Origin: a virus | Direction: 5' to 3' (one strand) | Length of the DNA: 64,000 nucleotides | IMG/VR virus record: IMGVR_UViG_3300013137_000013 | Span: 12,246 to 76,245 of that record | Shown here: in pieces, positions 41,896-64,000 of the stretch | How positions within the stretch are numbered: position 1 is the first letter of the stretch | How the letters are laid out: each line of letters begins with the position of its first letter | The notes under the pieces: model-generated | What the model was told of the DNA's origin: nothing | The model's database searches: none | What the model saw: only the letters and a program-made list of their open reading frames with translations | Translations under genes and position numbers: made by a program

Positions 41896-41970
41896 TATGC
41901 AAAAATAAGGAGTTTTAAAACAAAAGAAAATGCTGAAAAAGCCTTACTTTTGTTCAAAAAAAGAGTTTAT

Positions 41971-42022
41971 AAAACGGAGCGTAAAACCCACCCACCAGCT
42001 TTGCTGTGGGTGGGGAGTTCAC
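41971..42022 (+). mobile_element. 52-bp IS200/IS605-type single-hairpin mini-element (PATE-like)
   Basis: Preceded by TTTAT and ends in GTTCAC. Hairpin CCCACCCA-C-CAGC-TTT-GCTG-TGGGTGGG has the same architecture as the ends of the other two elements. Confidence 0.65.
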
Positions 42023-49418: not shown

Positions 49419-50117
49419 ATGGACGAAGTTGCAAGAAAAAAAGTATTAGAAATAATCAGAAAGTCTATAGATGAAGTTGTCTATGACGAAATGAGACAAA
49501 TGCCTGGCAGAATTCAAGCTAGACAAGAAGAATTTAAAAAAACCAGGTCACAAAGAGCCCAAGATGCTCACGAAGCACTATTTGGAAAAGAAGATGAAGA
49601 AGTTAACTACAGACTAAGTCTTCATGAAGAAGAAGATAAAAAACCTAAAATAACCACCAATGAGCTCTCTCAGTTTGAAAAGGAGTTTAAAAGTCGTTTT
49701 CCCGATATTACTTTTGACAAACAAAATGCCCCTGGGCAAAATGGCCAAATTGTAGATTTTCCAATAATAAATGGGAAAAAAGATGCTGTTGCTTCTGGTA
49801 AAATAATTATTGATAAAGAAACAGTTGGATTCACAATGTCACTATCCGACGGATTTAAAATTAAAAGCACAATTGAAAACGGTAAGCCAAAAGAGTTTGA
49901 GATTAAATCAGAAACAAAAGATGTCTTTGGAAAAATTCTTAATTTATTCGACGAACTGTTTAAGAAAAAATTCAACGAAATTATTAATCCTATTAAAGAA
50001 CCTGCAGCTGATACAATAGCTGCCCCCGAAGGAGGAGTTCCTCCAGTGGCAGCGGCAGCACCAGCACCAGCTCCAGGTGGAGAAACTGCACCTCCAACCC
50101 CAGCTCCTGGAGTGTAA
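49419..50117 (+). CDS. Hypothetical protein with Pro/Ala-rich tail
   Basis: ORF in operon. Confidence 0.7.
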   Translation: MDEVARKKVLEIIRKSIDEVVYDEMRQMPGRIQARQEEFKKTRSQRAQDAHEALFGKEDEEVNYRLSLHEEEDKKPKITTNELSQFEKEFKSRFPDITFDKQNAPGQNGQIVDFPIINGKKDAVASGKIIIDKETVGFTMSLSDGFKIKSTIENGKPKEFEIKSETKDVFGKILNLFDELFKKKFNEIINPIKEPAADTIAAPEGGVPPVAAAAPAPAPGGETAPPTPAPGV

Positions 50118-50171
50118 TATAAATTAAACAACTATTTAGTTTATCCTTTTTTAGGATTATATTTTCTTTGC

Positions 50172-50462
50172 ATGCATTCAATTCAACAAATAATAGAGAA
50201 CCAAAGTAAGTTTAAAGAAGAAATTTTTTCTTTTTTTTCTAAGGAACAGGCGGAAGCCAAGCGAGTTCTAAACAATATTAAGTCGGAAGATGAATATATT
50301 GTTAAAGAAAAGAATAAATTGAAAAACAAATTTAAAAAGATTAAACAGAGCATTTATGTAGAACGCCTGTTTTTTTTAAATTCTTCCAGAAACAAAACTT
50401 TATATGTTTGGTGGGACGAAGAAGAAAAAGATGCTAAAATTTTTAAATATGACAAAAGATAG
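50172..50462 (+). CDS. Hypothetical protein
   Basis: ORF. Confidence 0.6.
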   Translation: MHSIQQIIENQSKFKEEIFSFFSKEQAEAKRVLNNIKSEDEYIVKEKNKLKNKFKKIKQSIYVERLFFLNSSRNKTLYVWWDEEEKDAKIFKYDKR

Positions 50463-50769
50463 AAAAAACACCCAAGTTTATCTCGTTGATATTAAGTATA
50501 GACATTCCATGAACTACTTCGAAGAATGCTATGGAGAAAGTATAAATTATTCTTTCATTGAACAGGAAAGTTACATTGATTTGAAAAAAATGGTTTCTAA
50601 ATTGATTAGTGAAAAAATCAAATTCAGAAAATATGAAAGAAACAAAATGGTTTTAACGCTTAAAGTTGAAATGTTGGAAGAAGAATTAGAAAAATTGAGA
50701 TATTTAATAAAAGAGAAGAAGATGAAATTTTTTCACGATTATGAAATAAGTGACATTAGAAAACTATAA
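50449..50769 (+). CDS. Hypothetical protein
   Basis: Start set at MTKDRK. Confidence 0.6.
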   Translation: MTKDRKNTQVYLVDIKYRHSMNYFEECYGESINYSFIEQESYIDLKKMVSKLISEKIKFRKYERNKMVLTLKVEMLEEELEKLRYLIKEKKMKFFHDYEISDIRKL

Positions 50770-50781
50770 AAATATTGAATT

Positions 50782-51792
50782 ATGGGACAAGAATTAACAC
50801 CAGCTCAATTAGAGAGGTTAAAGCAACAAAGAGCCGCAAAGTTCAAATCTATGGGTTTGCCTGCAACTGCAGGACAATTGATGGACATTCCTGTGGAAAA
50901 CATACCAGAACAAAGAACTTATGAAGAACAACCACAAGTTGTTCAAGAATCAACTCAATATGAGCAAATAGACCCACGCATCAACGTAGAAATTCCAAAC
51001 CAATCAAATATTACAGAAGCAATTCAGCAACAATTGGCAGAAGAAAGAGCACAAAGACAGAGTACAATGTATACAGCACCAAGGGATAAGTTCAATGCAT
51101 TAGAAACAATTAAGCGAGGTGCAAAAAAACAAGAATTTAAAACATTCATGAAGGCAGAATCCCCCAATCAAAAATTTCAAGAATTAAAAGTTCCAAACAC
51201 AAAAAGAAAAGGTCAACCACAACAGCAATCGAAATCTTCAAACGCTGTTGCCCCTCAAGTATTTAATTCTTTAAAAAGTAGAGAGGAAGATATGTTAGCA
51301 AGCTTATTTACAGAGAATTCTGCTGGAATTAATATGAGTTCAACTGGGAGTGCTGCACCACAAGGAACACTTATTGAAACTGATGAAAACTACTCAAACA
51401 TAGGACCATATTTTGACCCAGTTGCACACTTAAAAGCAAAAGCTGCAGAAAAGGGAATTAACATTGGCTTTTCTAAGAAAAAGCAAGTTCTACAAGAAGG
51501 TCAAACGCCTCAAATTTTTCAAGCTGGAAATTCAGAACAGCTGGACAAAATGATGTTGATGATGGAAACCATGATGAAAAGTCAGCAAAAAACTTATGAC
51601 ATTGAAGCCATCAGACAAGAAATCCGTACTGTTGCGAAAAAAGTTGCAGAAGATACTATAAGAACCGTTTTAAAGGAATACTTAGAGGTTCGAAAGAAAA
51701 AACAAGCATTTGAAGTAGTTAACAAAGAACAAAACGTAGTTAAAATAGGCGAAAAATACTACCAATTAAAACCAGTAGTTCCAAAGTCTTAA
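50782..51792 (+). CDS. Hypothetical Gln-rich protein
   Basis: 336-aa ORF. Confidence 0.75.
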   Translation: MGQELTPAQLERLKQQRAAKFKSMGLPATAGQLMDIPVENIPEQRTYEEQPQVVQESTQYEQIDPRINVEIPNQSNITEAIQQQLAEERAQRQSTMYTAPRDKFNALETIKRGAKKQEFKTFMKAESPNQKFQELKVPNTKRKGQPQQQSKSSNAVAPQVFNSLKSREEDMLASLFTENSAGINMSSTGSAAPQGTLIETDENYSNIGPYFDPVAHLKAKAAEKGINIGFSKKKQVLQEGQTPQIFQAGNSEQLDKMMLMMETMMKSQQKTYDIEAIRQEIRTVAKKVAEDTIRTVLKEYLEVRKKKQAFEVVNKEQNVVKIGEKYYQLKPVVPKS

Positions 51793-51905
51793 CGTTGTGA
51801 ACGCTCCCCTTCACGCCAAAGGCGATGAATGGGCTTCTACACTGCAAGCACAACCTAATGGTTCACTTTGTGCAACGCTGGGCTTGTTCCTAAGCCCGAA
51901 TCTTT
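51781..51905 (-). ncRNA. Putative TnpB omega-RNA (scaffold plus about 16-nt guide AACGTTAAGACTTTGG)
   Basis: Stems GGGCTT/AAGCCC and GCACAA/TTGTGC; loop GTGAAC is complementary to the terminal GTTCAC (pseudoknot); RE hairpin present. Confidence 0.7.
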
Positions 51906-51955
51906 TTCATCCCATCCGCACTTCGTGACGAATGGGTTTTCTTGGCGAAAACTTT
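51797..51955 (-). mobile_element. 159-bp non-autonomous IS200/IS605 derivative (left end plus omega-RNA/right end, tnpB deleted)
   Basis: First 50 nt are identical to 63811-63860. TTTAT lies immediately 5'. A right-end hairpin is followed by TTCAC. Removing the element restores the flanking gene's stop codon. Confidence 0.85.
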
Positions 51956-52439
51956 ATAAATCGTCAATTGTAAAGTTGTTCGTAAAGATGACTTTTAAAG
52001 TAGGCGTAAATTTTGCTTCCCCAGCGTACCATTCTTTTAAGAATTGTTCTGGGGTTGTTTTTAATGCTACAATCGCTCTCTGCAAAATGGCTCCATGTAT
52101 TTGATTCCCTCTATTTAACCTAATAATGTTGTTTTGGTCAAACGTTGAATTAACAAAAATCACCCATTTTTTCTTTATTGCAACTTCTATGTGCTGTGTA
52201 GTATGGCACATTTTACACAAAGTAACACCCTGTGATAATTCTGGATGTTTTTTGTTTATTTCAGTTGTGGGTATGTGTAAATAAAGCTTATTACGCTCTG
52301 AGGGTTGGTGACCACAAGCAACACATCTACAACCATCTCTTACATAAGCATCATCTGCAAGTTTATCAAATAGTTCTTGTCCATAACTTTTGATAAATTG
52401 TTTTTCTTGAAAATTATTGGAAACTAATAGATTATACAT
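51954..52439 (-). CDS. HNH-fold Zn-binding protein (DotN/IcmJ-like appearance)
   Basis: RDGCRCVACG...LH...TLCKMCH..QH; TATATTTG at 52461-52468 on the minus strand; start set at the ATG. Confidence 0.6.
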   Translation of the reverse strand: MYNLLVSNNFQEKQFIKSYGQELFDKLADDAYVRDGCRCVACGHQPSERNKLYLHIPTTEINKKHPELSQGVTLCKMCHTTQHIEVAIKKKWVIFVNSTFDQNNIIRLNRGNQIHGAILQRAIVALKTTPEQFLKEWYAGEAKFTPTLKVIFTNNFTIDDL

Positions 52440-52562
52440 TTTTGAAATTCTTTTATGTGGCAAATATATGAATTTTTAATCAATTTTAAAAGTGTCCCCA
52501 TAGATTTTTATATGTTTTTCGAAAAAAAGTTGTGGGTTTTTTGATTTTTATGTTTTATTATC

Positions 52563-52570
52563 TATTTATA
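52563..52570 (+). promoter_or_regulatory. Putative late promoter TATTTATA
   Basis: Upstream of 52587. Confidence 0.7.
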
Positions 52571-52586
52571 TAAAAATTGTATCAAT

Positions 52587-53309
52587 ATGAACACTATTAA
52601 ATTCAAAACAAAAGACGAATTTGCAAAATATGTACAAGAAGCAGCTCGTAAAATTATCAACGAAGAAAAGATAAAAAGTCTTGGAATTCCAACTGATTTA
52701 GAAATGAACAAAATGGATGGTTCTAAGGATTCTACTGGTGCACAGGTTACAACCCAGGGGAAAGTAAAGAAAGATGCTCCAACTGATATTCCTGAAGAAT
52801 TTACAGCAACCAAAGACCCAGTTGATGTTAAGATGAGCGAAAGAGACGGCGGTCATGACGAAAAAATTGCCACAGCTGCTAAAATTGAGGGGTCAAACTC
52901 AGAAAAAGGTGAAACAGAAACTAATCCTTTTATCAAAGGGCAAGCAAAACCCAAAGTTGAAAGCAAAACCGACCAACCAAACGTTACAACAGATAATGAC
53001 CCAACCAAAGAAGGTGGCGTTCCTGGCAAGAAAGATAACAATGTCGAAATGAACCAAGAAGATAAAGAAGATAAAATTGAAAAACCAATGACCCAAGTTC
53101 TTGGGAAAGGTGAAATGGGAAAAGACGGATTTTCAAAAGGTCAAACCGATAAAGAAGTGAACGTAGAAGCTAAGAATGAAAAAGATGAATACGAACAAAA
53201 ATTAAGAGATTCAATAAAAACCATTCAACTTCCAGAAAGCTTCAAAAACAAAGCCGCTTTGTTAGAGTTCATTAAAAAAGAAGCTCTTAGGGTTTCAAAA
53301 ATTATCTAA
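52587..53309 (+). CDS. Late disordered Lys/Glu/Asp-rich protein (prohead core / internal protein-like)
   Basis: KIINEE and LPES; internal repeats V.M(S/N)..D...DEK and F.KGQ. Confidence 0.6.
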   Translation: MNTIKFKTKDEFAKYVQEAARKIINEEKIKSLGIPTDLEMNKMDGSKDSTGAQVTTQGKVKKDAPTDIPEEFTATKDPVDVKMSERDGGHDEKIATAAKIEGSNSEKGETETNPFIKGQAKPKVESKTDQPNVTTDNDPTKEGGVPGKKDNNVEMNQEDKEDKIEKPMTQVLGKGEMGKDGFSKGQTDKEVNVEAKNEKDEYEQKLRDSIKTIQLPESFKNKAALLEFIKKEALRVSKII

Positions 53310-53330
53310 ACAATAGTTGCAATATATTTT

Positions 53331-53364
53331 AAAAGAGTCAGGATTTATCTTGACTCTTTTTTTT
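53331..53364 (+). terminator. Rho-independent terminator
   Basis: AAAAGAGTCAGGA...TCTTGACTCTTTTTTTT. Confidence 0.8.
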
Positions 53365-53394
53365 GTTTTTGCTATATTTAAACTAAAAAAATTT

Positions 53395-55446
53395 ATGCAA
53401 GTTTTAGATATAGAAGAAATCAAAAAAGAATATTCCTTCTTATACGAGGATAAAGAAAATGATAAGGAAATTTATTTTTGCAATTGTGGTGCCATAACGG
53501 AGTCTGATAAAAAATTCATTAAAGATGTTCCCAAACATGAACAAATAAACTGTTTGTTCCCAGAAAAATCCCCTACTGTTGGAGATATACTTAAAGAGTC
53601 AAACAAAACAGAAGACGGCTTAACTAAATATGAAGATGAATTTGCCGACTTATTTAAAAGCATAAGGTTGTCCCAGGATGATGAATCTGGAGTTAAATGC
53701 GTTAGTTGCGGGAAAAACTTTGCAACTCTGGAAAATCAAAAAAAATTAATGGTAGATAATTCTTTTTTTGTATCTGGATATAACATTTTAGAGAATGATA
53801 ATGAACTGTTTTTGTATTATGGTAAAATAAGACCAGACATTAAGAAAGAAGATTCTAAATATTCTATTGATTTTGAACAAAAATACAAATATCTCAAATT
53901 AGATAAAATAACTAAGAAAACATATTTTAAAGACATTGACGTTGACGAAATAGAGTTTGATTTAGATAAAACAATTAAAGTTACAGAAAATATTTTTGCC
54001 GAAGAAGTGCAAAATATTTATAATTTGTATTATATTCAGCTATACATAAACCAACTTGCAAAGCACGTTGTAGACGTAAACAATACAAATGTTGTCGAGG
54101 AACTTCTAAGTGAAGTTAGAAACAGAATTAATCATGCAGGTCTGGATTCCATTAAAAAGGTTGTTTCCATATTTCTTGGAATTATAAAATATTCCAATCT
54201 ATCTACAATATCGCTTACAAAAGGATGTAAATTTCTTTATGATTTAATGAAGGAATGCGACATCCCCGACAGTGAAACACTAATGAAAAGCGGGCTTACA
54301 TCTCCAATTCCAATTTTCAACTATCTTGTTAACAATTATATTAGAAAAATAAACGAAGAGGTAAATGAAGATAATAAAGAAATTCATGAATTTTTGTTTA
54401 AATCTAATCAAATGGTAAAAATGGAAATTAATGAAAAAGACAAGCTACAAGAAGCCAAAAGCTTTGAAGTCGTTGATTTAGACGAAGAGAAAGAAATAAA
54501 AATTGTTTACAAAGAAAACAAGGATTATAAAGAAGGTAAAATCTCTCACAACTTCAATGCAAACAAATTCCAGGTTATGGAAATATCAAATGATGCCAAC
54601 GCTTCAAAATTTATATTTAAGAACATTAAAAAATTCTCTGATTATAAACAATTATTAAAATATTTTAAATTTTATGATAAACATCAGATTATAGCATTAT
54701 TGCAAAAATATGATATGGAATTACTTACAAAAGTAATTGATTTAATATATTTTAGGGACTTTGTAGATATTAAAGAATTCGAAAGAATAATAACAATCAT
54801 AAAAGATTTCGCAACTCAAGAAACTTTTAGATATAAACCAACGCTTAATATTGAAAAAATTGTTGTAGATTATTCATATGTAAGTAAGTTTGAGTTTGTG
54901 CTTTATGATGATAGTGTAATGATGATGGAGGTTTTAAAATTTGACCCCAAAAGAGAGTTTAATAAAATTAAGACATTCAAAGATTTAAGAGATTACCATG
55001 ATAATCTTGTTAAGTATTTTAATGTTGTAGCCGATAAAGAAAAAAATGCCAAATTTAAAGAATTTGTAGACAGATTTAAGTTCTTAGAAAGCAGGGAAGA
55101 CTATGATGGACCGCTGGAATTTAAAATTATATCTACACCAGCCATGCTTATAACCGAAGGCGTTCAAATGAAACACAGCGCATCTTCCTATTCAAAGAAA
55201 GTAATTACAGAATCATATCTTATTGGCCAGGTGTTCGACAGAACCCCCAACCTACCAGAGGAAGAATTGGTAAGATTTACAATAGGTTTTACATTCGACA
55301 GCATAAATGGTTTAGAGTTCCACCAGGTAAAAGGATTTGCCAACAAGCCAGGTACAGATAGGTTTAAAAAGCTATTAATGGAATTTCTAACAACTAAAGA
55401 TATATCCTATAGACCAATAAAAGATTTAAAACTGGCGAATGAATAA
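53395..55446 (+). CDS. PcfJ-like domain protein with N-terminal Zn-finger motifs
   Basis: CNCG and CVSCG; YDD...L.DYHD.L; LITEGVQMKHS..SY; QVKGFAN. Confidence 0.65.
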   Translation: MQVLDIEEIKKEYSFLYEDKENDKEIYFCNCGAITESDKKFIKDVPKHEQINCLFPEKSPTVGDILKESNKTEDGLTKYEDEFADLFKSIRLSQDDESGVKCVSCGKNFATLENQKKLMVDNSFFVSGYNILENDNELFLYYGKIRPDIKKEDSKYSIDFEQKYKYLKLDKITKKTYFKDIDVDEIEFDLDKTIKVTENIFAEEVQNIYNLYYIQLYINQLAKHVVDVNNTNVVEELLSEVRNRINHAGLDSIKKVVSIFLGIIKYSNLSTISLTKGCKFLYDLMKECDIPDSETLMKSGLTSPIPIFNYLVNNYIRKINEEVNEDNKEIHEFLFKSNQMVKMEINEKDKLQEAKSFEVVDLDEEKEIKIVYKENKDYKEGKISHNFNANKFQVMEISNDANASKFIFKNIKKFSDYKQLLKYFKFYDKHQIIALLQKYDMELLTKVIDLIYFRDFVDIKEFERIITIIKDFATQETFRYKPTLNIEKIVVDYSYVSKFEFVLYDDSVMMMEVLKFDPKREFNKIKTFKDLRDYHDNLVKYFNVVADKEKNAKFKEFVDRFKFLESREDYDGPLEFKIISTPAMLITEGVQMKHSASSYSKKVITESYLIGQVFDRTPNLPEEELVRFTIGFTFDSINGLEFHQVKGFANKPGTDRFKKLLMEFLTTKDISYRPIKDLKLANE

Positions 55447-55538
55447 TTATTATATTTAACGCAGTAGTAATTACTATCTTCTTACTTATTTAATACGAGA
55501 AAAAAGAATTTTATGCTATTTATTATAAAACATTTGTA

Positions 55539-56015
55539 ATGAAAAATAGCATAAAAAATTTTTTATTAGAATCTGAAAGTGATAAAGATGATAACTTTGC
55601 TTATCTCAAGGGAGATACTATTGCAAAAGTCAATGACGTAGACTTCGACAGCAAAGAAAATTACATTAAAATCAGATTTTCAACTACCTATAAAAAGAAA
55701 TATTCCTTTGTTGCCAAACTAACTGATTTTAAAAAGTGGTTACAGGGCAAATTGCAAGGAAAATCTCCAAATTTATTTCATGATTATCTCGTAGACTTCT
55801 TTAATTCTTCGAAAGAAGTAAAAGTTAAACAGATAGATGAAATTATAGACGACACCAATGAAATAATGCCAGACGAAGACATCCCAACAAATGCAACAAA
55901 CAAAATGGTTGGCGATTCTCACACAATGGATTTGGAAAAAATATTTAAAAAATCAATGCCAAAATCAGTCAGAAACTATTCTGGCAATTTGGGATTAGGA
56001 ACAGTAGTTTGGTAA
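55539..56015 (+). CDS. Hypothetical late protein
   Basis: TATTTATT at 55517-55524; LLESE and IDEII motifs. Confidence 0.7.
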   Translation: MKNSIKNFLLESESDKDDNFAYLKGDTIAKVNDVDFDSKENYIKIRFSTTYKKKYSFVAKLTDFKKWLQGKLQGKSPNLFHDYLVDFFNSSKEVKVKQIDEIIDDTNEIMPDEDIPTNATNKMVGDSHTMDLEKIFKKSMPKSVRNYSGNLGLGTVVW

Positions 56016-56033
56016 TATATAAATCTCAATACA

Positions 56034-56495
56034 ATGGAAAAAATTAAAGATAAAAGAATGTTAGAACTTATGAAATCTTTGGAAGAATCTCATGAAGTTT
56101 ATAAGGATAACACAAAAGAAGTTGATGAAAACAAAATTTTAACTGAAAACGAAAGGCTAAAAAAACTTATTTCAAAAGATACTAATGCCGACTTTAAAAA
56201 CGAAAACTATTATATAGCTGGCAAATTTGGCACAGGGGGAAGAGGTAGGACTGTAAACTCAATTTTGGATGATTATAAAGATAATCCAACTACACAAACC
56301 CCAAAGGTTTCGCCTTCAAATTTAAAACCAGATGAAGCTCTTGAAGTTTGTATTAAAAGAGTTTTAAAATCAGGGATGCCTGTTAATAACATTTCTTTTT
56401 ATGATGAAATTAATTGGAACTTGATGAATCTTGGATTCCCAGCAGTTAAAGAAATTGATATAAAAAACGCCATCTCGTTAATGATTGGTGAATAA
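56034..56495 (+). CDS. Hypothetical late protein
   Basis: LEES and LTENERLKKLI motifs. Confidence 0.7.
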   Translation: MEKIKDKRMLELMKSLEESHEVYKDNTKEVDENKILTENERLKKLISKDTNADFKNENYYIAGKFGTGGRGRTVNSILDDYKDNPTTQTPKVSPSNLKPDEALEVCIKRVLKSGMPVNNISFYDEINWNLMNLGFPAVKEIDIKNAISLMIGE

Positions 56496-57058
56496 TGAAA
56501 GAGTTTCTTAGAAAAACAATAAGAGAACAAATAGATTTGCTATTTGAATCGTTTGAGATGCAAAACGAGAAGAAGGGGTATTTGCCTACCACTGAAGTTG
56601 CAAAAACGGCTCAAATGGCATTAGAAGCCATAAGTTTGGCTAAACAAAAAGGAGTTGAACCCACCAGTTTAGATGAAACTGGAAACCAAGGTAGCGGCAG
56701 ATTTAAGGCCAAACAACTTTCCCAAAGAAAAAAACAAAGCTTTGTTGAAATGAAAAGATTAAAAGCTTTTTTTGAATCCAACACAGGGAAAGTGGAAGAA
56801 GAAAGAAAAATGCTCGGAATAATTCAACAAAGAAGAGGTACCATTGATGAAATGTCAAAATCTAACATTCTACTTGTATGGAACTTACATGGCGGAGACC
56901 CCTGCCAAAAATGGGTAACATCTAAACTATCAGATACACACTCCCAAGGAATGCATAAAAAAGAAAGATTGCGTAAGGCTGGGGGAGCTTATAAAAATAA
57001 CGGTATGGGCGTTTTTAGAACTCAATATAACCCATCACAACAAAGAATTCATAGATAA
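56495..57058 (+). CDS. Hypothetical virion-associated protein
   Basis: LRKTIREQ leader; A.QL......MKRLKAFF...WNLHGGD...W. Confidence 0.65.
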   Translation: MKEFLRKTIREQIDLLFESFEMQNEKKGYLPTTEVAKTAQMALEAISLAKQKGVEPTSLDETGNQGSGRFKAKQLSQRKKQSFVEMKRLKAFFESNTGKVEEERKMLGIIQQRRGTIDEMSKSNILLVWNLHGGDPCQKWVTSKLSDTHSQGMHKKERLRKAGGAYKNNGMGVFRTQYNPSQQRIHR

Positions 57059-57059
57059 T

Positions 57060-57090
57060 TTTGTTTTCTGGCTTTTTTTTCTTATCTTTG
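57060..57090 (+). promoter_or_regulatory. Bacteroidota-type promoter TTTG-N19-TATCTTTG
   Basis: Canonical spacing upstream of 57118. Confidence 0.7.
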
Positions 57091-57117
57091 AATGTTAATT
57101 TTTAAAAATTTATAATC

Positions 57118-57693
57118 ATGGCAGAAAAAAATTATTCAGCACTACAGGGTATTGGAACCCCTGAAATCGTGGTGGAAGTAAGAGAAAAAGATGCTGTTTT
57201 CGCTGGTGGAAGCAAGTATTTAGAAGCAGATGATGAACTGCGCCCAATTGCTGATTGGATAAAATCTAATGTTCCACACAATGCGGACATTAAACCCGAC
57301 AGAATTAAGTATCTCTACACCACACTTGTTAAGAAAGATGGCGGAAAATTTGTTCTGGGAACTCTTTCTTTGCGTAGCGAACTTGAAAAAACAGTGAACG
57401 ATGACTACGACTACATTCTTTTTGTTCACTATAAAACATGGAAAGAACTGAATATTGAGAATAAAGTTATTCAGTTGGACAAAATTCTTTGCGGAGTTGA
57501 TATTGATGCTGAAAACAATACCAAAAAAATGTCCGTAGACAGCAAAGAATATATCAGCAATTTAAGACATTATGGACCAGAAGTGGTTTTGAATAGCACT
57601 GAAATAGTTGATATGACTGTTGACAGAATAATTGGCCAAGAAAAAGAAGAAAGAAAAGAGGCCAAAGAAAGTCGTAAGAAAAGAAAAGAATAA
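57118..57693 (+). CDS. Phage metallopeptidase-like fold lacking HExxH
   Basis: IKYL...G.FVLG...YDYILFV....W..L..E.K.IQLDKILC, where HELxH would be expected. Confidence 0.5.
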   Translation: MAEKNYSALQGIGTPEIVVEVREKDAVFAGGSKYLEADDELRPIADWIKSNVPHNADIKPDRIKYLYTTLVKKDGGKFVLGTLSLRSELEKTVNDDYDYILFVHYKTWKELNIENKVIQLDKILCGVDIDAENNTKKMSVDSKEYISNLRHYGPEVVLNSTEIVDMTVDRIIGQEKEERKEAKESRKKRKE

Positions 57694-57704
57694 GGCAAAG
57701 AATA

Positions 57705-57974
57705 ATGGAACTCGTTAAATCAAAAATGTTATTGGCGGCTTTATCTCAATGCGTAGCAGACAGAGATAGTGCTGCTGCTAACATTGCATCAATATTAAAT
57801 GAGGGATGTGTCAGAGAATCTGACAATATTCAAAATCTTAAAAAAGAATTTGAAAAAATTGCTCATTTAGAGTTAGCCATGGAGGCAATTCAGGTTTATT
57901 ATGCAAACCATTGCCCGCTTCCAAGTCAAGAACCAGAAAAAAAAGAGAACAATGTTGATGATAATAATCCTTAA
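57705..57974 (+). CDS. Hypothetical protein
   Basis: ORF in operon. Confidence 0.7.
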   Translation: MELVKSKMLLAALSQCVADRDSAAANIASILNEGCVRESDNIQNLKKEFEKIAHLELAMEAIQVYYANHCPLPSQEPEKKENNVDDNNP

Positions 57975-58191
57975 GGTTATATTGGTGCTTTTTATCTTAC
58001 TGGGAGCATATATAATGAAAATGCTCTACAAAGATTTTAAGTTAATCGAAAAGACCGAAGAATACGAAAATAGTACACTTGCAGACAAAATTAAATTGAA
58101 AGCTGTGTTATATTTTTCATTAGTTGGAATATGTACATTTTGCTTACTTCTTTTGTATTTCGTTATTGTTCCAATGCAAATTATATGGTAA
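57952..58191 (+). CDS. Small two-TM membrane protein
   Basis: Two hydrophobic helices; start 57952 or 57958. Confidence 0.65.
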   Translation: MLMIIILKVILVLFILLGAYIMKMLYKDFKLIEKTEEYENSTLADKIKLKAVLYFSLVGICTFCLLLLYFVIVPMQIIW

Positions 58192-58197
58192 TTTTTT

Positions 58198-58276
58198 GGA
58201 GGTGGCTCCCTTAATAGCTACGGCTGACCGAAGGCATCTGATAGAGTACAAACTATCTATACAGGGGGCGAAACCA
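58198..58276. ncRNA. Unclassified structured RNA/DNA element candidate
   Basis: GC-rich island in an AT-rich spacer. GCTCCCT/AGGGGGC closes two hairpins, CGG-CTGA-CCG and GATAG-N8-CTATC. Confidence 0.35.
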
Positions 58277-58294
58277 AATTTTACTTTCTTCTAA

Positions 58295-58302
58295 TATTTA
58301 TA
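58295..58302 (+). promoter_or_regulatory. Putative late promoter TATTTATA
   Basis: 3 nt upstream of ATG 58306. Confidence 0.5.
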
Positions 58303-58305
58303 TAC

Positions 58306-58611
58306 ATGAAGGAATTTTTCAATAAAAAATGGAAGCACTCAAGGCTTAGATTCTATATTTTAAACGCAATGTGGAATTATAAGTTTTGGTTGTTTTGCAA
58401 AAAAATGTATAAAAATGTAAACTATCAAATTGAAGACGGTGATTATGATATGAATTTCGATTATACTCTAAAAAGGGGCAAAAAAAACGTTTCCAAAAGA
58501 AGATTCGTAGGTTATTTTTTTAATAACAATATATATTTGGATAATCCAGGATTGAAAATAGAGGATAGAGAGACCTGGGAGGTATGGAAAAAGAAGAAAT
58601 TAATTAAATAA
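58306..58611 (+). CDS. Hypothetical basic, aromatic-rich protein
   Basis: ORF followed by a terminator. Confidence 0.65.
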   Translation: MKEFFNKKWKHSRLRFYILNAMWNYKFWLFCKKMYKNVNYQIEDGDYDMNFDYTLKRGKKNVSKRRFVGYFFNNNIYLDNPGLKIEDRETWEVWKKKKLIK

Positions 58612-58634
58612 GGCTGTGGCAACACAGCTTTTTT
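58611..58634 (+). terminator. Rho-independent terminator
   Basis: AGGCTGTG-GCAA-CACAGCTT plus U-tract. Confidence 0.7.
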
Positions 58635-58668
58635 ATTTTAAAATAAACGCAAAAAGCTTTTTTTTTAA

Positions 58669-58676
58669 TATTTATA
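58669..58676 (+). promoter_or_regulatory. Putative late promoter TATTTATA
   Basis: Upstream of 58695. Confidence 0.7.
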
Positions 58677-58694
58677 AAAAAATCTTTTTAGCAA

Positions 58695-60398
58695 ATGGAA
58701 AATAAAGAAATATATCCTGAAGGAACAGTAAATCAAACAGAGGAATTTGCTTTGCGCCAAAAAATTAAAAAATTAGTAGGCGAAAATGTTGAAGAAGTAA
58801 TTAAAGAAGAAACCATTAAAGCCTTTGAAGATTTAGGTTATGAGGAAAAAGATGGTTACATGTTTGTTGTTGCTGCTGGTGGAAAAGACAATAAAGAAAA
58901 AGAAGTTGGAAAAGGCACGCAAGAAGGCAAATTAAATGTTACCGTTTCCATTCCAAAAATGCTTAACATGGGCGCTGTAAAACCAGTTTCCTACATGCAA
59001 AAAGTAGTTACTTTTGGTGGGAAGAAAATTGTTAGTGAAATTTACCTAGAAATTAAAGACAGAACTGTTCACATTGAATATAAAAACACTGAGGCCGCAT
59101 CCTTTCACCCTTCGTCAGATAAAGACACATATGCACCAAACCAACTTAACAAAAACGGTGTAATTTCTGGAATAGAAAATGAAAAAACCTTTAGAAAAGA
59201 TTTTAAAGACTTTTTTGAATCAATTGCAAAAGCTGAAGCCATGTATTTGGTTGGTACTAAAATAGCAAATGATGATAAAATTGAAAAAAATATGAATGAT
59301 TCAATTGTAAAAGAAAATAAACATAGCATGAAACTAACAGACCTTTTTTCAAGTTCCTTTGAGGAAGTTGGGAATCAAATAGACAATCTTATGAAAGAAT
59401 CTCTTGAATTAAAAGAGGGCGAAAAGAAAGGTGACAAAAAAGATTCTTATGGTACCCCAGCAACTTCTACTGGCAAGCCAACTGACAAAAAACTTGTTAT
59501 TGGAAGCGAAGATAAAACAGAAGAAGAAAAAAATGAAAATACGGTAGAAGAAATAACAGCTTCTGGCGGAAATGCAGCTGGAGGTGCTTTCCTTACTCCT
59601 CATTCTTTTACAAATGATGGAAAAACAAAAGCTTTTAAAACAAACAAAGACCTTGGTTATACAGAAGTTAAAATGAACGAAGCAGTAAAAAATACAACCT
59701 ATGGAGCAATGAGAACTCCAAGAGCTCATCTTGAAAGACAAGAAAATGGTTCTTACAAACTCATCACAGAATCTGATTTGAAAACCCCTTATACCGAAAC
59801 TGTTCCTATGGGAAAAGATGGATGGCCACCAGAAGGAATGGAACATCCTTTCGCTATGGGAAAACATGGAGTTCCAGTAAATAGTCCAGAAGAACTTAAA
59901 GAAACTGGACACGGCGATTTAAGTCAATTGGAAAAAAAGGAAGATGAAGACAAAAAAGGTTTGGAAGAAAACTATCAAAAGTCTCTTAATTTGACAAAAA
60001 GGAAATTTACTTCTTTGAAAGAAAATGAAGAAAAGGGAATTAACAAAAGATATATAATTACCGAAAAACTTTCAAAAGAAGACCAGACAAAAAGATGGAA
60101 GACACTGTATGAAAACGACTGTTTCTGTGGGATAAAAGACCAGCAGGACATTGTTTCAAGAGGCGAATATGAAAATAAAGCTGACAAAGAATTTGCAGCA
60201 AACAACCCAATTGAATCTAATTTGTGTGATACCCCATATTCTGGAGAACAAGAAGGATTTGTTGACGTTCCAAAAACAAAGGACAGCATGATTGTTTTTA
60301 GACTTTCAGAATCCGATGTTAAAGCAAACAAAATGTACTTAATTGACCACTTCACTAAAAAATTAGTTCTTAATCCCCTGTATAAACCACAGGAGTAA
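58695..60398 (+). CDS. Late Glu-rich protein (putative head-internal protein with multiple processing sites)
   Basis: Repeated hydrophobic-x-E sites: VIKEE, VKEN, MKES, LKEG, VEEI, MNEA, ITES, LEEN, LKEN, ITEK, LYEN, LSES. Confidence 0.6.
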   Translation: MENKEIYPEGTVNQTEEFALRQKIKKLVGENVEEVIKEETIKAFEDLGYEEKDGYMFVVAAGGKDNKEKEVGKGTQEGKLNVTVSIPKMLNMGAVKPVSYMQKVVTFGGKKIVSEIYLEIKDRTVHIEYKNTEAASFHPSSDKDTYAPNQLNKNGVISGIENEKTFRKDFKDFFESIAKAEAMYLVGTKIANDDKIEKNMNDSIVKENKHSMKLTDLFSSSFEEVGNQIDNLMKESLELKEGEKKGDKKDSYGTPATSTGKPTDKKLVIGSEDKTEEEKNENTVEEITASGGNAAGGAFLTPHSFTNDGKTKAFKTNKDLGYTEVKMNEAVKNTTYGAMRTPRAHLERQENGSYKLITESDLKTPYTETVPMGKDGWPPEGMEHPFAMGKHGVPVNSPEELKETGHGDLSQLEKKEDEDKKGLEENYQKSLNLTKRKFTSLKENEEKGINKRYIITEKLSKEDQTKRWKTLYENDCFCGIKDQQDIVSRGEYENKADKEFAANNPIESNLCDTPYSGEQEGFVDVPKTKDSMIVFRLSESDVKANKMYLIDHFTKKLVLNPLYKPQE

Positions 60399-60414
60399 AT
60401 AAACCTATATTAAT

Positions 60415-60443
60415 AAAAATCCATCAATTTGATGGATTTTTTT
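60415..60443 (+). terminator. Rho-independent terminator
   Basis: AAAAATCCATCA-ATT-TGATGGATTTTTTT. Confidence 0.75.
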
Positions 60444-60487
60444 GATTTTAGTTTTTATTATTACTATATTTTAGAAAAAACCAAAAT

Positions 60488-61006
60488 ATGAATTCTACAA
60501 AGGATATTAAAGTAACATTTTTAGAAAGTGCCAAATATACGAGCACGGAAAAAATCAGAGTCTTTTTCAAAGACCTTTTTAACAATGACATCCAAATTGA
60601 TTTACGCCCTGGGGAAGTCGTTTATTCGCAAACAGACTACCTTTCAAACTCTTTGAGAATATATTCAAAAAAAGGAATTATCAACATTCAGGAAGAAAGT
60701 AAACCTGGATTTTTAGATTATTATGTTGGCTATAAACAAGAAGAAGTTGATAATAAATATTTCCTCTTCAATTTGCAAAACTCTTTAAAAAAACCTTTAG
60801 AAAAGCAAGAGAAACCAAAAAAAGAAATAGCAAAACCAACTGCAGAAGTCAAAATCAAAGAGGATGATTTAACAGTTGTTGACAAAGCTATTAAAAACGC
60901 TAAAAAATATTCAGAAAAGAAGAAATCCAGAAGCAGAAAAGGACCTGGAAGGCCAAAGAAGAGAGGTCCCAAAAAAGGCTCAAAAAGAAAGAAATCGGAG
61001 GAATAA
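60488..61006 (+). CDS. Hypothetical protein with AT-hook-like basic C-terminal tail
   Basis: RKGPGRPKKRGPKKGSKRKK. Confidence 0.65.
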   Translation: MNSTKDIKVTFLESAKYTSTEKIRVFFKDLFNNDIQIDLRPGEVVYSQTDYLSNSLRIYSKKGIINIQEESKPGFLDYYVGYKQEEVDNKYFLFNLQNSLKKPLEKQEKPKKEIAKPTAEVKIKEDDLTVVDKAIKNAKKYSEKKKSRSRKGPGRPKKRGPKKGSKRKKSEE

Positions 61007-61009
61007 CAC

Positions 61010-61270
61010 ATGGTAATTAAAAGCTTTAAAATCAAAAGAAGCGATTTTGAGAAAAAGCCAATTACCATATTTCAACACAAATTAAGAGTTTTAATGAAGT
61101 GTTATACGATAAGAGAGCTTGTTCTCGATGAAGTAAACTTCACTATTAGATTTAAAAAAAGTCATAAAATTAATGGTTTAAAAATGGAAGACCCTAAAGA
61201 ATATACTGGTACTTACGAGATTGCTGAAGCCGAAAATATTTCAGAACTTACACTCAAACTTATGATATAA
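61010..61270 (+). CDS. Hypothetical protein
   Basis: ORF in operon. Confidence 0.65.
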   Translation: MVIKSFKIKRSDFEKKPITIFQHKLRVLMKCYTIRELVLDEVNFTIRFKKSHKINGLKMEDPKEYTGTYEIAEAENISELTLKLMI

Positions 61271-62046
61271 TGGATTTTTCTGATTTAACCAAAAGGGAAC
61301 TACATATTAAATCCATTTTTCTCCCAGAAATCAAAAGCCCCCAAAAAGAGTACTTATCCGAAGAAAAGGTTTATGAAATCATCAAGGGCATATCTGGCAT
61401 AGGGGAAAGATGTGGCTTTGTTGGAAATAAAGAAAATCAAGATTTGGAAAAGTCTTCAAAAAGAAAACATAAATACGATGTTTGGATTGCAAAAGAAATT
61501 AAGAAAAATCTTGATTTATTAAACCAATTTAGCAAAATTCGTTTTATCTTAGACTGGGCTATTCAAACAAAAGCAGATATATTCCTTTATTCTTTTGATG
61601 AAGCATTTAAACAACAAGAAGCATGGCACAAAGAGTTATTTGCCAAATATGATGTCGAAGAATTAGAAATTCAGGAAATTGATAATGATAGAGTATTGTT
61701 TAGATGTTCAGATAAAAAACACTTCATTTACTTACTTACAGCTGAAGATTTGACATATGAGGGCAAGGCAATGAGCATGTGCGTGGGTGGAGATAATTAT
61801 AAAACTAGCGTAAGAAACAATATGTCTATTATAATTTCCCTACGTGATGAAAAAAACCAACCACACGTAACTACAGAAATAGGAGTCCAAAGCGGTGACA
61901 TTATTCAACAATACGGAAAAGGAAACTCCAATCCTTTGCCAGAATATAAAAGATTGTTTTTAGAATTTGTACTATTTGCTACGAATTACGAAGAATTAAA
62001 CAATAACGAGACATTGCGCTTGTTAAATTTAAACCAGACCCTTTGA
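61270..62046 (+). CDS. PcfJ-like domain protein
   Basis: ILDW...QEAWH...LTYEGKAMSMCVGG..Y..ISLRDEKNQPHVTTE..QQYGKGNS.P. Confidence 0.7.
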   Translation: MDFSDLTKRELHIKSIFLPEIKSPQKEYLSEEKVYEIIKGISGIGERCGFVGNKENQDLEKSSKRKHKYDVWIAKEIKKNLDLLNQFSKIRFILDWAIQTKADIFLYSFDEAFKQQEAWHKELFAKYDVEELEIQEIDNDRVLFRCSDKKHFIYLLTAEDLTYEGKAMSMCVGGDNYKTSVRNNMSIIISLRDEKNQPHVTTEIGVQSGDIIQQYGKGNSNPLPEYKRLFLEFVLFATNYEELNNNETLRLLNLNQTL

Positions 62047-62064
62047 AATAATATTTTCCTGCAA

Positions 62065-62072
62065 TATTTATA
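62065..62072 (+). promoter_or_regulatory. Putative late promoter TATTTATA
   Basis: Upstream of 62084. Confidence 0.7.
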
Positions 62073-62083
62073 AACAAAAAGTT

Positions 62084-62878
62084 ATGTGGACAAAAATCAA
62101 AAATTACATCCAGGCAATTGTAGCTATTGCTGGGGTATTATTCCTGATGCTTTTTCTGAATCAGTGTAATCAAACAAGAAAACTCAAAAAAGAATTAGCA
62201 CGTCAAGAGCAAATTGCCAAACAAAATTATGCTGCTCTAAATGATTCTATTAAGGTTTATAAAAATTTATTAGGGGAAACATCCTTCAGTAAGCCTATAG
62301 CCGAAATGAATGCCGAAGATATTAAAAAATATTTTCCTTCTCTTTATGATAGATTAAAGGCAGAATTAGGAGAAGTAAAAATTATATGGAAAACACAATT
62401 TGTATATAAGGATACTGGCTCTGTTATAAATGCTATAGTTAAACTTGATAGTAATGAATATGCTTTAAAATATGATTATTATTCAACCGATAGTTCTCTG
62501 CACATAAAGTCATCAAATACTTTCTTCGCAAACCCAATTCTCGTTGATAAAGAAAAGAATCAATACTCAATAATCACAAAATCAGGTATTTCAACCATAG
62601 ATGATGTGAGTTTAAAAATGGGATTTACCACTGGAATTAAAAAAGAGGGCGATTTATATAAAATATTCATAACCCCCAGCAGCTCAAAAATCGTTATAAC
62701 GCAATTAGAAGGCGCAGACGTGTCTAATATGATTAACCCACCTATTTCTCCAACCAAGAACAAAAGATGGTCTATAGGTCTTTATATTGGGTATGGAATA
62801 GCTTTTGGAAGTGATGGTAAATATACATTAGGTCCAGGGGTCGGGATAAGCTTGCAGTATTCCATACTCAAGTTTTAG
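62084..62878 (+). CDS. Membrane-anchored coiled-coil protein with C-terminal amphipathic beta-hairpin (spanin candidate)
   Basis: N-terminal TM and coiled coil; ends KRWSIGLYIGYG...GPGVGISLQYSILKF. Confidence 0.55.
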   Translation: MWTKIKNYIQAIVAIAGVLFLMLFLNQCNQTRKLKKELARQEQIAKQNYAALNDSIKVYKNLLGETSFSKPIAEMNAEDIKKYFPSLYDRLKAELGEVKIIWKTQFVYKDTGSVINAIVKLDSNEYALKYDYYSTDSSLHIKSSNTFFANPILVDKEKNQYSIITKSGISTIDDVSLKMGFTTGIKKEGDLYKIFITPSSSKIVITQLEGADVSNMINPPISPTKNKRWSIGLYIGYGIAFGSDGKYTLGPGVGISLQYSILKF

Positions 62879-62890
62879 TAATTTTCTCAT

Positions 62891-62898
62891 TATTTATA
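62891..62898 (+). promoter_or_regulatory. Putative late promoter TATTTATA
   Basis: Upstream of 62914. Confidence 0.7.
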
Positions 62899-62913
62899 TA
62901 AAATCAAAGTACT

Positions 62914-63492
62914 ATGGAAGCAAACAAAAAAGTCAAGGGCTATGCTGAAAAATTAATCACGCTATTAGCCAAAAAAATGGACTTAGACATTACAAAATAC
63001 GACATGAATGAATTAGTCCAAGGAATGTTAGTTGAATTAGAACATGGTAGTCAAAATGATAAAACAAATGTTACCGACGACAATCCAACAGAAACCTTTA
63101 AAATAGTTTTAGTACATATGGACGAATTGCCAGACTACTATACCAGATTAGAAAAAATGGAAAAAGAAGCTGGTTTAGTAAAAACTGAAACTCAAGAAGA
63201 AACCGAAGAAAGTTCTGAGGAAGACTCAGAAGAAGAAACTGAAGAAAAAAAACTTACTATGGAAAATGCTGCTAAAAGATTTAAAGAACTTTGTGGTATA
63301 GTTGAAAATGATGAAAAAAAACAACTAAAGAACGCTCTTTATCAAGAAAAGCCCAAAAAAACTCTTTTGAAAGAAGAAATAGACCCAACTAAATTCGATA
63401 TTGTTAAATTTAGCAACGATGGTCTTGGAGAAAAAGGCTCAGACGAGGAAATTGACCTCTATAAAATGCAAACTAAAACGAAAAAACTTTAA
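62914..63492 (+). CDS. DUF5661-like protein with acidic linker
   Basis: ELVQGMLVELEHG..TNVTDDNP..T.KI.L.H.DELPDYYTRLEKME. Confidence 0.65.
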   Translation: MEANKKVKGYAEKLITLLAKKMDLDITKYDMNELVQGMLVELEHGSQNDKTNVTDDNPTETFKIVLVHMDELPDYYTRLEKMEKEAGLVKTETQEETEESSEEDSEEETEEKKLTMENAAKRFKELCGIVENDEKKQLKNALYQEKPKKTLLKEEIDPTKFDIVKFSNDGLGEKGSDEEIDLYKMQTKTKKL

Positions 63493-63494
63493 AA

Positions 63495-63528
63495 TAAAAT
63501 GGGGGCTTTTGCCCCCCCCATTTTTTTT
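63495..63528. terminator. Bidirectional terminator
   Basis: AAAATGGGGG...CCCCCATTTTTTTT between convergent genes. Confidence 0.7.
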
Positions 63529-63796: not shown

Positions 63797-63810
63797 ATTG
63801 ATTTTTTTAT

Positions 63811-64000
63811 AAAGTTTTCGCCAAGAAAACCCATTCGTCACGAAGTGCGGATGGGATGAATTGGCGTTTGCTTTTGTAAATATACGAAAATTTTTTAAAA
63901 TAGTTACGAATAAATTCAATTTTATAAAATTTTTATATATTTGTATATAGAACATATAAAAAAATAGATGTTAAAGGCATATAAATATAGGATATTTCCG
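63811..64000 (+). mobile_element. IS200/IS605-family (IS1341-like, tnpB-first) element, truncated by the window end
   Basis: TTTAT target, then left-end hairpin CGCCAA..CCCATTCG-T-CAC-GAA-GTG-CGGATGGG..TTGGCG, promoter TATATTTG at 63936-63943, then the tnpB start. Confidence 0.85.
63968..64000 (+). CDS. tnpB: TnpB RNA-guided nuclease, first 11 codons only
   Basis: MLKAYKYRIFP is a typical TnpB N-terminus and lies downstream of an IS605-type left end. Confidence 0.8.
   Translation, partial: MLKAYKYRIFP

What the first reader, a model, noticed from the sequence alone, without database searches (positions are those of the whole stretch)
51781..51960. Orphan omega-RNA mini-transposon: a protein-free guide cassette for TnpB supplied in trans
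Seen on the minus strand: TTTAT, then 50 nt identical to the left end at 63811 (identity stops exactly at TTTAT and at the deletion point), then about 109 nt of scaffold ending TTCAC, then AACGTTAAGACTTTGG. The scaffold keeps nested stems and a perfect 6-bp pseudoknot (GTGAAC with terminal GTTCAC). Excision restores GAT TTA TAA and leaves the two convergent stop codons 2 bp apart, so the insertion is silent. It sits just downstream of a gene with a host-type promoter, so read-through could transcribe it. Established: TnpB cuts TAM plus guide-matching empty sites. Inference: the deletion removed tnpB but kept both mobility ends and the RNA. One TnpB could therefore be programmed by dispersed guides that cut co-infecting relatives lacking the insertion, a distributed homing or phage-competition system.
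Basis: partly seen in the sequence, partly recalled or inferred. Interest (0 to 1): 0.85.

Follow-up and report, generated by a model that had tools for sequence, protein, structure and literature searches.

The report
Gene-less TnpB guide-RNA mini-transposon in phage
A 159-base jumping element that has lost its nuclease gene but keeps both transposon ends and the full guide-RNA scaffold of a TnpB nuclease sits silently between two genes of a lake-water phage; it is real and has moved at least once, but this kind of element is already described and its activity here is untested.

Summary
On the minus strand, TTTAT (51960-51956) is followed by a 159-nt insertion (51955-51797). It consists of 50 nt identical to the left end at 63811 plus 109 nt ending TTCAC. 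Removing it restores GAT TTA TAA and leaves the two convergent stops 2 bp apart. A metagenome contig (L118) holds the full parent: TTTAT, left end, promoter, an intact 387-aa TnpB (ISDra2-like, E 5e-71), right end. The mini's 109 nt match its last 113 nt at 94.7%. The window is the end of its contig, so only the first 11 tnpB codons (63968-64000) are seen. A second mini with the same junction (151/159 identical) lies elsewhere (L150), so the mini form has moved. Relatives at 63-66% protein identity lack the insertion. Twelve close relatives support three helices by covariation, all kept in the mini. His pseudoknot is probably mis-assigned: by homology to ISDra2 it is GGAAC (stem-1 loop) with GUUC. 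It is a PATE of an IS200/IS605 element carrying an omega-RNA, a kind already described (Meers 2023) and met before by this scan in other phages. Expression, TnpB loading and phage competition remain untested.

The parts
51956..51960 (-). TAM / target motif TTTAT, immediately 5' of the left end. Its last T plus the element's first AA form the stop codon of the upstream gene.
   Evidence: The same TTTAT precedes the left end at all eight insertion sites seen: window 63806, mini, L116, L118, L119, L120, L146, L150.
51797..51955 (-). 159-nt gene-less mini-element (PATE) = LE50 + RE109.
   Evidence: A second copy with the same junction is in L150, 151/159 identical.
51906..51955 (-). Left-end segment, 50 nt. 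It includes the inner LE hairpin CCCATTCG-T-CAC-GAA-GTG-CGGATGGG (51935-51910). The 3' arm of the outer LE stem (TTGGCG) is deleted.
   Evidence: 100% identical to window 63811-63860. Full-length copies continue with TTGGCGTTTGC beyond 51906 (loose ends).
51797..51905 (-). Right-end segment, 109 nt. It is the last 30 codons of tnpB (..FGLRNKPSVAQSEPLGCACSVEAHSSPLA*) and equals the omega-RNA scaffold, ending GTTCAC.
   Evidence: 94.7% identical to L118 1231-1343. Translation of L118.
51880..51897 (-). Omega-RNA stem 1, GGGCUU/AAGCCC, with loop AGGAAC. The loop's GAAC is the likely pseudoknot partner of GUUC at 51802-51799.
   Evidence: Covariation (helix 1). Pseudoknot assigned by homology to the ISDra2 omega-RNA (PMC10097598). 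Modest cross-subfamily covariation.
51840..51877 (-). Long-range stem CGUUGC (51877-51872) / GCAGUG (51845-51840), enclosing the small hairpin AACC-AUUA-GGUU (51863-51852).
   Evidence: both helices are 100% paired in 12 relatives, with 4 and 3 pairs showing changes on both sides.
51806..51833 (-). Right-end hairpin (omega-RNA stem 4 / TnpA-binding hairpin) CCCAUUCAUCGCC-UUU-GGCGUGAAGGGG. It resembles the LE inner hairpin.
   Evidence: The equivalent hairpin covaries across the family.
51781..51796 (-). Predicted 16-nt guide, AACGTTAAGACTTTGG (flanking DNA, 3' end of the convergent gene).
   Evidence: Assigned by position, by IS605/TnpB rules. The only match in the 76 kb is this junction itself, which has TTCAC instead of the TAM.
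51954..52439 (-). Upstream gene (161 aa from ATG 52439), weakly HNH-endonuclease-like. Read-through from it is the only visible way to transcribe the mini.
   Evidence: PHROG HNH families, E 1e-5 to 6e-4.
52461..52468 (-). TATATTTG, which matches the Bacteroidota -7 promoter box TAnnTTTG. The -33 element is only a weak TTTT 19 nt upstream.
   Evidence: Read. The consensus is from general knowledge and was not tested here.
50782..51792 (+). Convergent gene (336 aa) whose last 12 nt lie inside the predicted guide.
   Evidence: Orthologues in L148/L149 abut the HNH-like gene with no insertion.
63806..64000 (+). Sibling copy cut by the contig end: TTTAT (63806-63810), LE with full double-stem hairpin (63811-63866), TATATTTG box (63936-63943), and the first 11 codons of tnpB, MLKAYKYRIFP (63968-64000).
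   Evidence: 97.9% identical to L118 2-196, where the ORF continues to 387 aa.

Best explanation
The feature is a 159-bp palindrome-associated transposable element (PATE). It is a non-autonomous derivative of a phage-borne, tnpB-only IS200/IS605-family insertion sequence. One internal deletion, with 2 nt of microhomology, joined the first 50 nt of the left end to the last 109 nt of the element. Shown: the intact parent form exists, and the mini form occurs at two unrelated sites with the same junction. It inserts 3' of TTTAT without duplication, relatives have the uninterrupted site, and all comparatively supported omega-RNA helices are retained. Inferred: a Y1 TnpA supplied in trans moves it as single-stranded DNA. 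When it is transcribed by read-through from the upstream HNH-like gene, a TnpB from a full-length sibling could trim and load the RNA, using the adjacent 16 nt as guide. That complex would cut only TTTAT+AACGTTAAGACTTTGG, which is the site left by excision or a phage allele lacking the insertion. Recombination with a copy that carries the element would then restore or spread it. This is selfish maintenance; no benefit to the phage is shown.
For: Anatomy and 55/55 identity to the LE at 63806. Full parent L118: LE, promoter, 387-aa ORF with HTH_OrfB_IS605, OrfB_IS605 and Cas12f1-like_TNB domains. It matches ISDra2 TnpB structures 8bf8/8h1j at E 5e-71, and the motifs GIDLG, IEDL and HDRD are present. 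The mini's RE part is 94.7% identical to the L118 3' end. Second mini locus L150: 159 nt, same junction, 151/159 identical, different flanks. Four of the 8 differences lie in stems and all keep or improve pairing. Logan contigs of two lake runs span the junction with the L150-type differences. The LE motif CAAGAAANCC..GGATGAATTG occurs in more than 115 IMG/VR loci, nearly all followed by a 370-430-aa ORF, some with Y1_Tnp (E 2e-37). Empty sites occur in L148/L149. Covariation for stem 1, the long-range stem and the small hairpin: 95.8% paired, 11 pairs with double changes, score 0.483 versus 0.179 shuffled, 0/500. The ISDra2 core is 116 nt, its 5' region is dispensable, and its pseudoknot is GAA (stem-1 loop) with UUC (PMC10097598). 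In the mini, stem 1 starts at -101 and the deletion lies about 4-8 nt upstream of it. Element parts are 10-28 times deeper than the phage flanks in lake metagenomes. No off-target site in 76 kb.
Against: The mini has no promoter of its own, because the deletion removed the parent's. The L150 copy sits directly behind an intrinsic-terminator hairpin and T-tract, so read-through is not a conserved feature. No cognate intact tnpB and no tnpA is visible in the 76-kb contig. The sibling at 63806 could be the dead deletion form seen in L117/L120/L146, which has the same 5' end. The mini's LE lacks the 3' arm of the widely conserved outer stem. A covariance model built from more distant relatives scores the mini at only 6.2 bits, and Rfam has no matching family.
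Confidence: 0.8

Rival explanations
1. Inert relic: the mini is a dead internal-deletion remnant. It may once have been moved by TnpA, but it is not transcribed, not loaded by TnpB and not maintained. It persists only because an insertion at two stop codons is neutral.
For: No own promoter. The second copy lies behind a terminator. No tnpA or intact tnpB in the contig. A still smaller 52-nt one-hairpin element with the same TTTAT...GAGTTCAC ends exists at 41971-42022 without any omega-RNA, so retention of the scaffold is not required for persistence.
Against: Both mini copies keep exactly the complete omega-RNA core, although transposition should need only the terminal hairpin. Substitutions between the copies and the parent spare or compensate the helices. 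A second independent deletion type (L117/L120/L146) also keeps the omega-RNA.
Confidence: 0.35
2. Domesticated regulatory element: the phage uses the insertion as a terminator or insulator between the two convergent genes.
For: On the + strand, the complement of stem 1 followed by AATCTTTTTC scores as the only terminator-like site in 51400-52700. It lies about 90 nt after the stop of the 336-aa gene.
Against: Relatives manage with overlapping or abutting stops and no such element. The T-run is a by-product of the deletion junction. The same 159-nt element occurs in an unrelated context in L150.
Confidence: 0.05
3. Not IS605-related: a chance repeat or another structured RNA, such as a riboswitch, an sRNA or a group I intron fragment.
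For: No Rfam hit for any omega-RNA family. The CM from distant relatives gives no significant score.
Against: Direct 94.7% identity to the 3' end and right end of an intact tnpB element, and 100% identity to its left end. Boundaries are exact at TTTAT and TTCAC in many copies.
Confidence: 0.01

Closest known systems
PATEs (palindrome-associated transposable elements) of IS200/IS605 that encode omega-RNAs: Geobacillus stearothermophilus (Meers et al. 2023, PMC10055086), first named in Haloquadratum (PMC3119063)
   Same: Gene-less, with LE and RE hairpins of a sibling IS. It needs TnpA in trans and carries an omega-RNA that would need TnpB in trans. The paper states exactly this modularity.
   Different: It sits in an uncultured lake-water phage fragment rather than a bacterial chromosome. 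It is very small (159 nt, LE cut to 50 nt without the outer stem). It is inserted at overlapping stop codons.
ISDra2 TnpB-omega-RNA (Deinococcus radiodurans; cryo-EM structures 8bf8, 8ex9, 8h1j; PMC10097598)
   Same: The parent TnpB aligns over residues 3-360 at E 5e-71. Both have a scaffold of about 100-116 nt overlapping the tnpB 3' end. Both have a stem-1 loop GGAA(C/U), a 3' GUUCA, and a terminal hairpin before the guide.
   Different: TAM is TTTAT rather than TTGAT. The stem-1 loop is only 6-7 nt. No tnpA lies in the element. The structure here is inferred, not solved.
IS608 / IS200-IS605 peel-and-paste transposition by Y1 TnpA
   Same: Subterminal hairpins at both ends, insertion 3' of a short target motif, and no target duplication. 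Family members with the same LE motif encode Y1_Tnp.
   Different: No TnpA was found with this subfamily or in this contig. Mobilisation of the truncated LE is inferred from two loci only.
Free-standing homing endonucleases of T4-like and jumbo phages (seg/mob marker exclusion; the intron endonuclease of Birkholz et al. 2024, cited in PMC13565253)
   Same: The proposed outcome: cutting the allele of a co-infecting relative that lacks the element, then copying the element in.
   Different: Targeting would be RNA-guided and split between a nuclease gene and dispersed guide cassettes. Nothing of this is shown here.

Membership tests
IS200/IS605 PATE | Both ends homologous to the LE and RE of a full-length IS of the family, with subterminal hairpins | tested here: met
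   LE 50/50 identical to window 63811-63860. RE part 94.7% identical to L118 1231-1343. Hairpins are present. The LE lacks the 3' arm of the outer stem.
IS200/IS605 PATE | No protein-coding gene inside | tested here: met
   159 nt. Only the last 30 codons of tnpB remain, without a start codon.
IS200/IS605 PATE | Insertion 3' of a fixed target motif, without target-site duplication, at exact boundaries | tested here: met
   TTTAT at 8 of 8 sites, with no flanking repeat. Similarity to other copies stops at 51797 and 51960/61. Relatives L148/L149 have the uninterrupted site.
IS200/IS605 PATE | Mobilised as such (more than one locus of the same deleted form) | tested here: met
   L150: same 159-nt form and junction, 95% identical, unrelated flanks. 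There are only two loci, so support is limited.
IS200/IS605 PATE | A Y1 (HUH) TnpA available in trans | tested here: inconclusive
   No PF01797 match in the 76-kb contig, which is 24% of the genome. Y1_Tnp is present in other elements with the same LE motif.
TnpB omega-RNA | Derived from the 3' end of tnpB plus the RE, ending at the transposon boundary and followed by the guide | tested here: met
TnpB omega-RNA | Conserved secondary structure supported by covariation and retained in this copy | tested here: met
   three helices, 11 pairs with double changes, 0/500 shuffles. The mini keeps all of them, using G-U at two positions.
TnpB omega-RNA | Pseudoknot between the 3' end of the scaffold and an upstream loop | tested here: inconclusive
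GGAAC (stem-1 loop) with GUUC is invariant in the subfamily. It matches the ISDra2 pairing. Across subfamilies, loop and tail co-vary only modestly (cognate mean 4.8 versus 3.8 paired nt).
TnpB omega-RNA | Expressed, processed and bound by a cognate TnpB; directs TAM-dependent cleavage | not testable with these tools
   No RNA run is listed for this stretch. The cognate tnpB is cut off by the contig end.
Rfam-curated omega-RNA / IS605-associated RNA families | Match to a curated covariance model | tested here: not met
   cmscan of 50000-64000 at E<=1 found nothing at this locus.

The most novel reading that the evidence does not exclude
In this phage lineage one intact TnpB serves many dispersed, gene-less guide cassettes (minis and other deletion forms). 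During co-infection the loaded guides cut relatives that lack each insertion. The insertions and their flanking markers would then be over-inherited: an RNA-guided, split version of T4-type marker exclusion that acts as phage-phage competition.
Probability: 0.15. Interest if true: 0.7.

Novelty: new member of a known kind. Interest (0 to 1): 0.3.

Why it matters
The element adds a well-documented case to a pattern: IS200/IS605 elements thrive inside large environmental phages and decay into guide-RNA-only miniatures. Three points may be useful to specialists. First, a natural omega-RNA of about 101-105 nt with a 50-nt left end defines a very small mobile unit. Second, both copies landed where the element's own ends recreate stop codons (T|AA at the left end, TCA read as TGA at the right end), which shows how TTTAT targeting lets it hide at gene ends in AT-rich genomes. 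Third, the sequence gives a ready TnpB/omega-RNA/TAM set (L118 TnpB, TTTAT) for testing trans-loading. It does not open a new class of system.

Tried and rejected
Rfam cmscan of 50000-64000 found no relevant family.

Exact-match scans of IMG/VR with a 40-nt LE piece, a 28-nt RE piece and the window's junction found nothing.

GenBank phages gave no DNA match to the element and no protein match to the 336-aa neighbour.

Covariance model R1, built from 16 more distant TTCAC-type right ends, did not find the mini with default filters. It scored 6.2 bits with filters off, so it is too distant to be a test.

MAFFT of 24 mixed right ends misaligned the mini's stem 1, so alignment A1 was discarded.

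PF07282 and PF01797 gave no hit in the 76-kb contig.

Sequencing runs: no RNA holder is listed. In the four DNA runs laid, no contig joins across the element, so no empty allele or donor joint was seen. All runs are contigs, so rare variants would be missed.

The tnpB fragment at the end of L150's contig is another subfamily (..GTATGTCAA end), so it is not a cognate partner.

A scan of bacterial and archaeal genomes for the TnpB gave at best 66-69% identity in MAG contigs and no host clue.

The 372-kb relative (G001) has no copy of the mini.

A loop/tail complementarity statistic for the pseudoknot across subfamilies was only weakly discriminating.

Full report
**What is in the sequence.** On the minus strand the region reads GAC GAT TTA T|AA AGTTTTCGCC...GGGATGAA|AAAGATTC...GAGCGTTCAC|AACGTTAAGACTTTGG. 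TTTAT is 51960-51956, the inserted element is 51955-51797 (159 nt), and the 16 nt after TTCAC are 51796-51781. BLAST against the whole contig finds one other match. It covers TTTAT plus 50 nt, is 55/55 identical, and lies at window 63806-63860. The minus-strand ORF ends with a TAA made of the T of TTTAT and the element's first two bases. The plus-strand ORF 50782-51792 ends at TAA 51790-51792.

**The window ends where the contig ends.** The genome held is a single 76,245-nt linear IMG/VR record, rated 24% complete, and the window is its last 64 kb. The 'full element beyond 64000' therefore cannot be read there. What can be read after the left end at 63811 is a TATATTTG box (63936-63943) and then ATG TTA AAG GCA TAT AAA TAT AGG ATA TTT CCG. 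That is MLKAYKYRIFP, a TnpB-type N-terminus cut by the contig end. The other end of the contig (genome 98-152, minus strand) holds a second, diverged left end with compensatory changes in both stems. Both contig ends thus stop inside such elements, as expected from assembly breaks at repeats.

**The family.** A degenerate left-end pattern, CAAGAAANCC-N12-28-GGATGAATTG, hit more than 115 IMG/VR loci, many on contigs of 100-400 kb. The inner and outer stems covary and a TTTA[T/A/C]-type motif lies about 10 nt upstream. In nearly all loci with enough sequence a 370-430-aa ORF follows. In some a 130-aa ORF is also present, and two of these are Y1_Tnp (E 2e-37 and 1.6e-36). The right ends read GAAGCCC-hairpin-GGGTAGTTCAC, like the mini's 3' end.

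**The parent.** A metagenome scan with the last 34 nt of the window returned five loci.
- L118 is a complete element: TTTAT|left end, promoter, a 387-aa ORF, then ...GAGCGTTCAC|.
- The protein has HTH_OrfB_IS605, OrfB_IS605 and Cas12f1-like_TNB domains. It aligns with ISDra2 TnpB structures at E 5e-71.
- The mini's 109-nt right part matches L118 1231-1343 at 94.7%, and its left part matches L118 1-56 at 100%.
- The mini is therefore LE50 joined to the last 30 codons of tnpB plus the right end.
- L116, L119 and L120 are further insertions at other TTTAT sites.
- L120+L117 and L146 carry a different internal deletion: left end, promoter and about 21 codons fused to the last 66 codons or so.

**The mini form has moved.** Laying Logan contigs of four lake and sediment runs on 51000-52800 gave several results.
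- In run X2 the phage flanks stand at 23x, but the right-end part of the element is at 642x and the left-end part at 316x.
- Similarity to other copies breaks at exactly 51797, 51960/61 and 51906/07.
- Two contigs span 51803/10-51960 without gaps but continue into a different flank.
- No contig joined across the element.

A junction pattern allowing one of their differences found L150 in IMG/VR. L150 holds a 159-nt element with the same junction, 151/159 identical, inserted after the TTTAT of a terminator T-tract. Its guide is different (AGAGTTATCTTTTGCA), and its terminal TCA provides the TGA stop of the convergent 769-aa ORF. Four of the eight differences lie in stems and all keep or improve pairing.

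**Empty sites.** Two relatives, L148 and L149, are 66% and 63% identical in the 336-aa protein and 64% and 62% in the HNH-like protein. Both have the same two convergent genes with overlapping or abutting stops and no insertion. L149 reads GAT GAT TTA T|AT TAA at the same place. These are too diverged to be targets of the present guide.

**RNA structure.** In 12 close relatives (alignment A3), three helices are supported: stem 1 (GGGCUU/AAGCCC, loop AGGAAC), a long-range stem (CGUUGC/GCAGUG) and a small hairpin (AACC/GGUU).
- They are 95.8% paired, with 11 pairs showing changes on both sides.
- The covariation score is 0.483 against 0.179 in shuffles (0 of 500 as high), and at most 0.12 when partners are slid.
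His pseudoknot has no double change.

In the solved ISDra2 complex, UUC at -5 to -3 pairs with GAA in the stem-1 loop. It does not pair with the GAA just before the last hairpin. The region 5' of the 116-nt core is dispensable (PMC10097598). Our element has the same GGAAC loop and GUUCAC tail, so the pseudoknot is most likely GAAC:GUUC. Across subfamilies the loop and tail change together: CUGAC with GUCAG, GACG with CGUC, GGCAUC with GAUGUC. The statistic is weak, however. In the mini, stem 1 starts at -101 and the deletion lies 4-8 nt upstream, so the whole predicted core is present.

**Expression and partners.**
- The mini has no promoter.
- The upstream 161-aa gene is weakly HNH-like. It has a TATATTTG box before its ATG, and no terminator lies before the element.
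- A G-U-rich hairpin plus U-run lies 16-45 nt past TTCAC.
- The L150 copy sits directly behind a terminator, so read-through is not a conserved arrangement.
- No tnpA and no complete tnpB is present in the 76 kb.
- The guide has no TAM-flanked match elsewhere in the contig. Its own junction carries TTCAC instead of TTTAT.

**Comparison and verdict.** This is a PATE of an IS200/IS605 element that carries a complete omega-RNA. Meers et al. 2023 already note that PATEs often encode omega-RNAs that must be used in trans by TnpB from other IS copies. This scan has also reported such gene-less guide cassettes in other phages several times. It is a clean, well-supported new member of a known kind. 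Trans-loading, homing and phage competition remain untested inferences.

Noticed in passing
window 41966-42022 (+): TTTAT followed by a 52-nt element with a single hairpin (CCCACCCAC...GTGGGTGGG) ending GAGTTCAC. It has the same end motifs as the IS family but no omega-RNA. CM R1 scores it 17.6 bits.
   Followed up: partly
L121:98-152 (-), i.e. the first 152 nt of the contig, outside the window: A second, diverged IS605-type left end (CTTAT|GAGAAATCGGCAAGAAAGCCAAC...GTTGGATGAATTGCC) with compensatory changes in both stems. It points out of the contig, so both contig ends stop inside such elements.
   Followed up: partly
L117:12805-13080 (-) with L120 and L146: Another deletion form of the same IS: left end, promoter and about 21 codons of tnpB (with a stop at codon 16 in L117) fused to the last 66 codons or so plus the right end. 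It keeps both the promoter and the omega-RNA.
   Followed up: partly
window 51879-51908 (+): On the opposite strand, the complement of omega-RNA stem 1 plus the T-run created at the deletion junction looks like an intrinsic terminator. It lies about 90 nt after the 336-aa gene.
   Followed up: no
L150:2667-2845 (-): The second mini copy is inserted in the T-tract of a terminator hairpin. The TCA of its terminal TTCAC supplies the TGA stop of the convergent 769-aa ORF. Both mini copies recreate stop codons at their ends.
   Followed up: partly
window 51954-52439 (-): The gene just upstream of the mini is a small HNH-endonuclease-like protein (PHROG E 1e-5). It is conserved at the same position in the relatives L148/L149.
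   Followed up: no
L001-L115 (IMG/VR loci): The left-end motif has a strongly conserved internal loop (GAAA opposite GAUGAA) between two covarying stems, in more than 115 viral contigs. The mini lacks the outer stem's 3' arm and has apparently still moved, so the role of the outer stem is unexplained.
   Followed up: no
L122-L147 versus L156-L195: TnpBs more than 70% identical to the parent were found only in viral contigs. In 185,579 prokaryote genomes the best are 66-69%, on short MAG contigs. This IS lineage looks phage-resident.
   Followed up: partly
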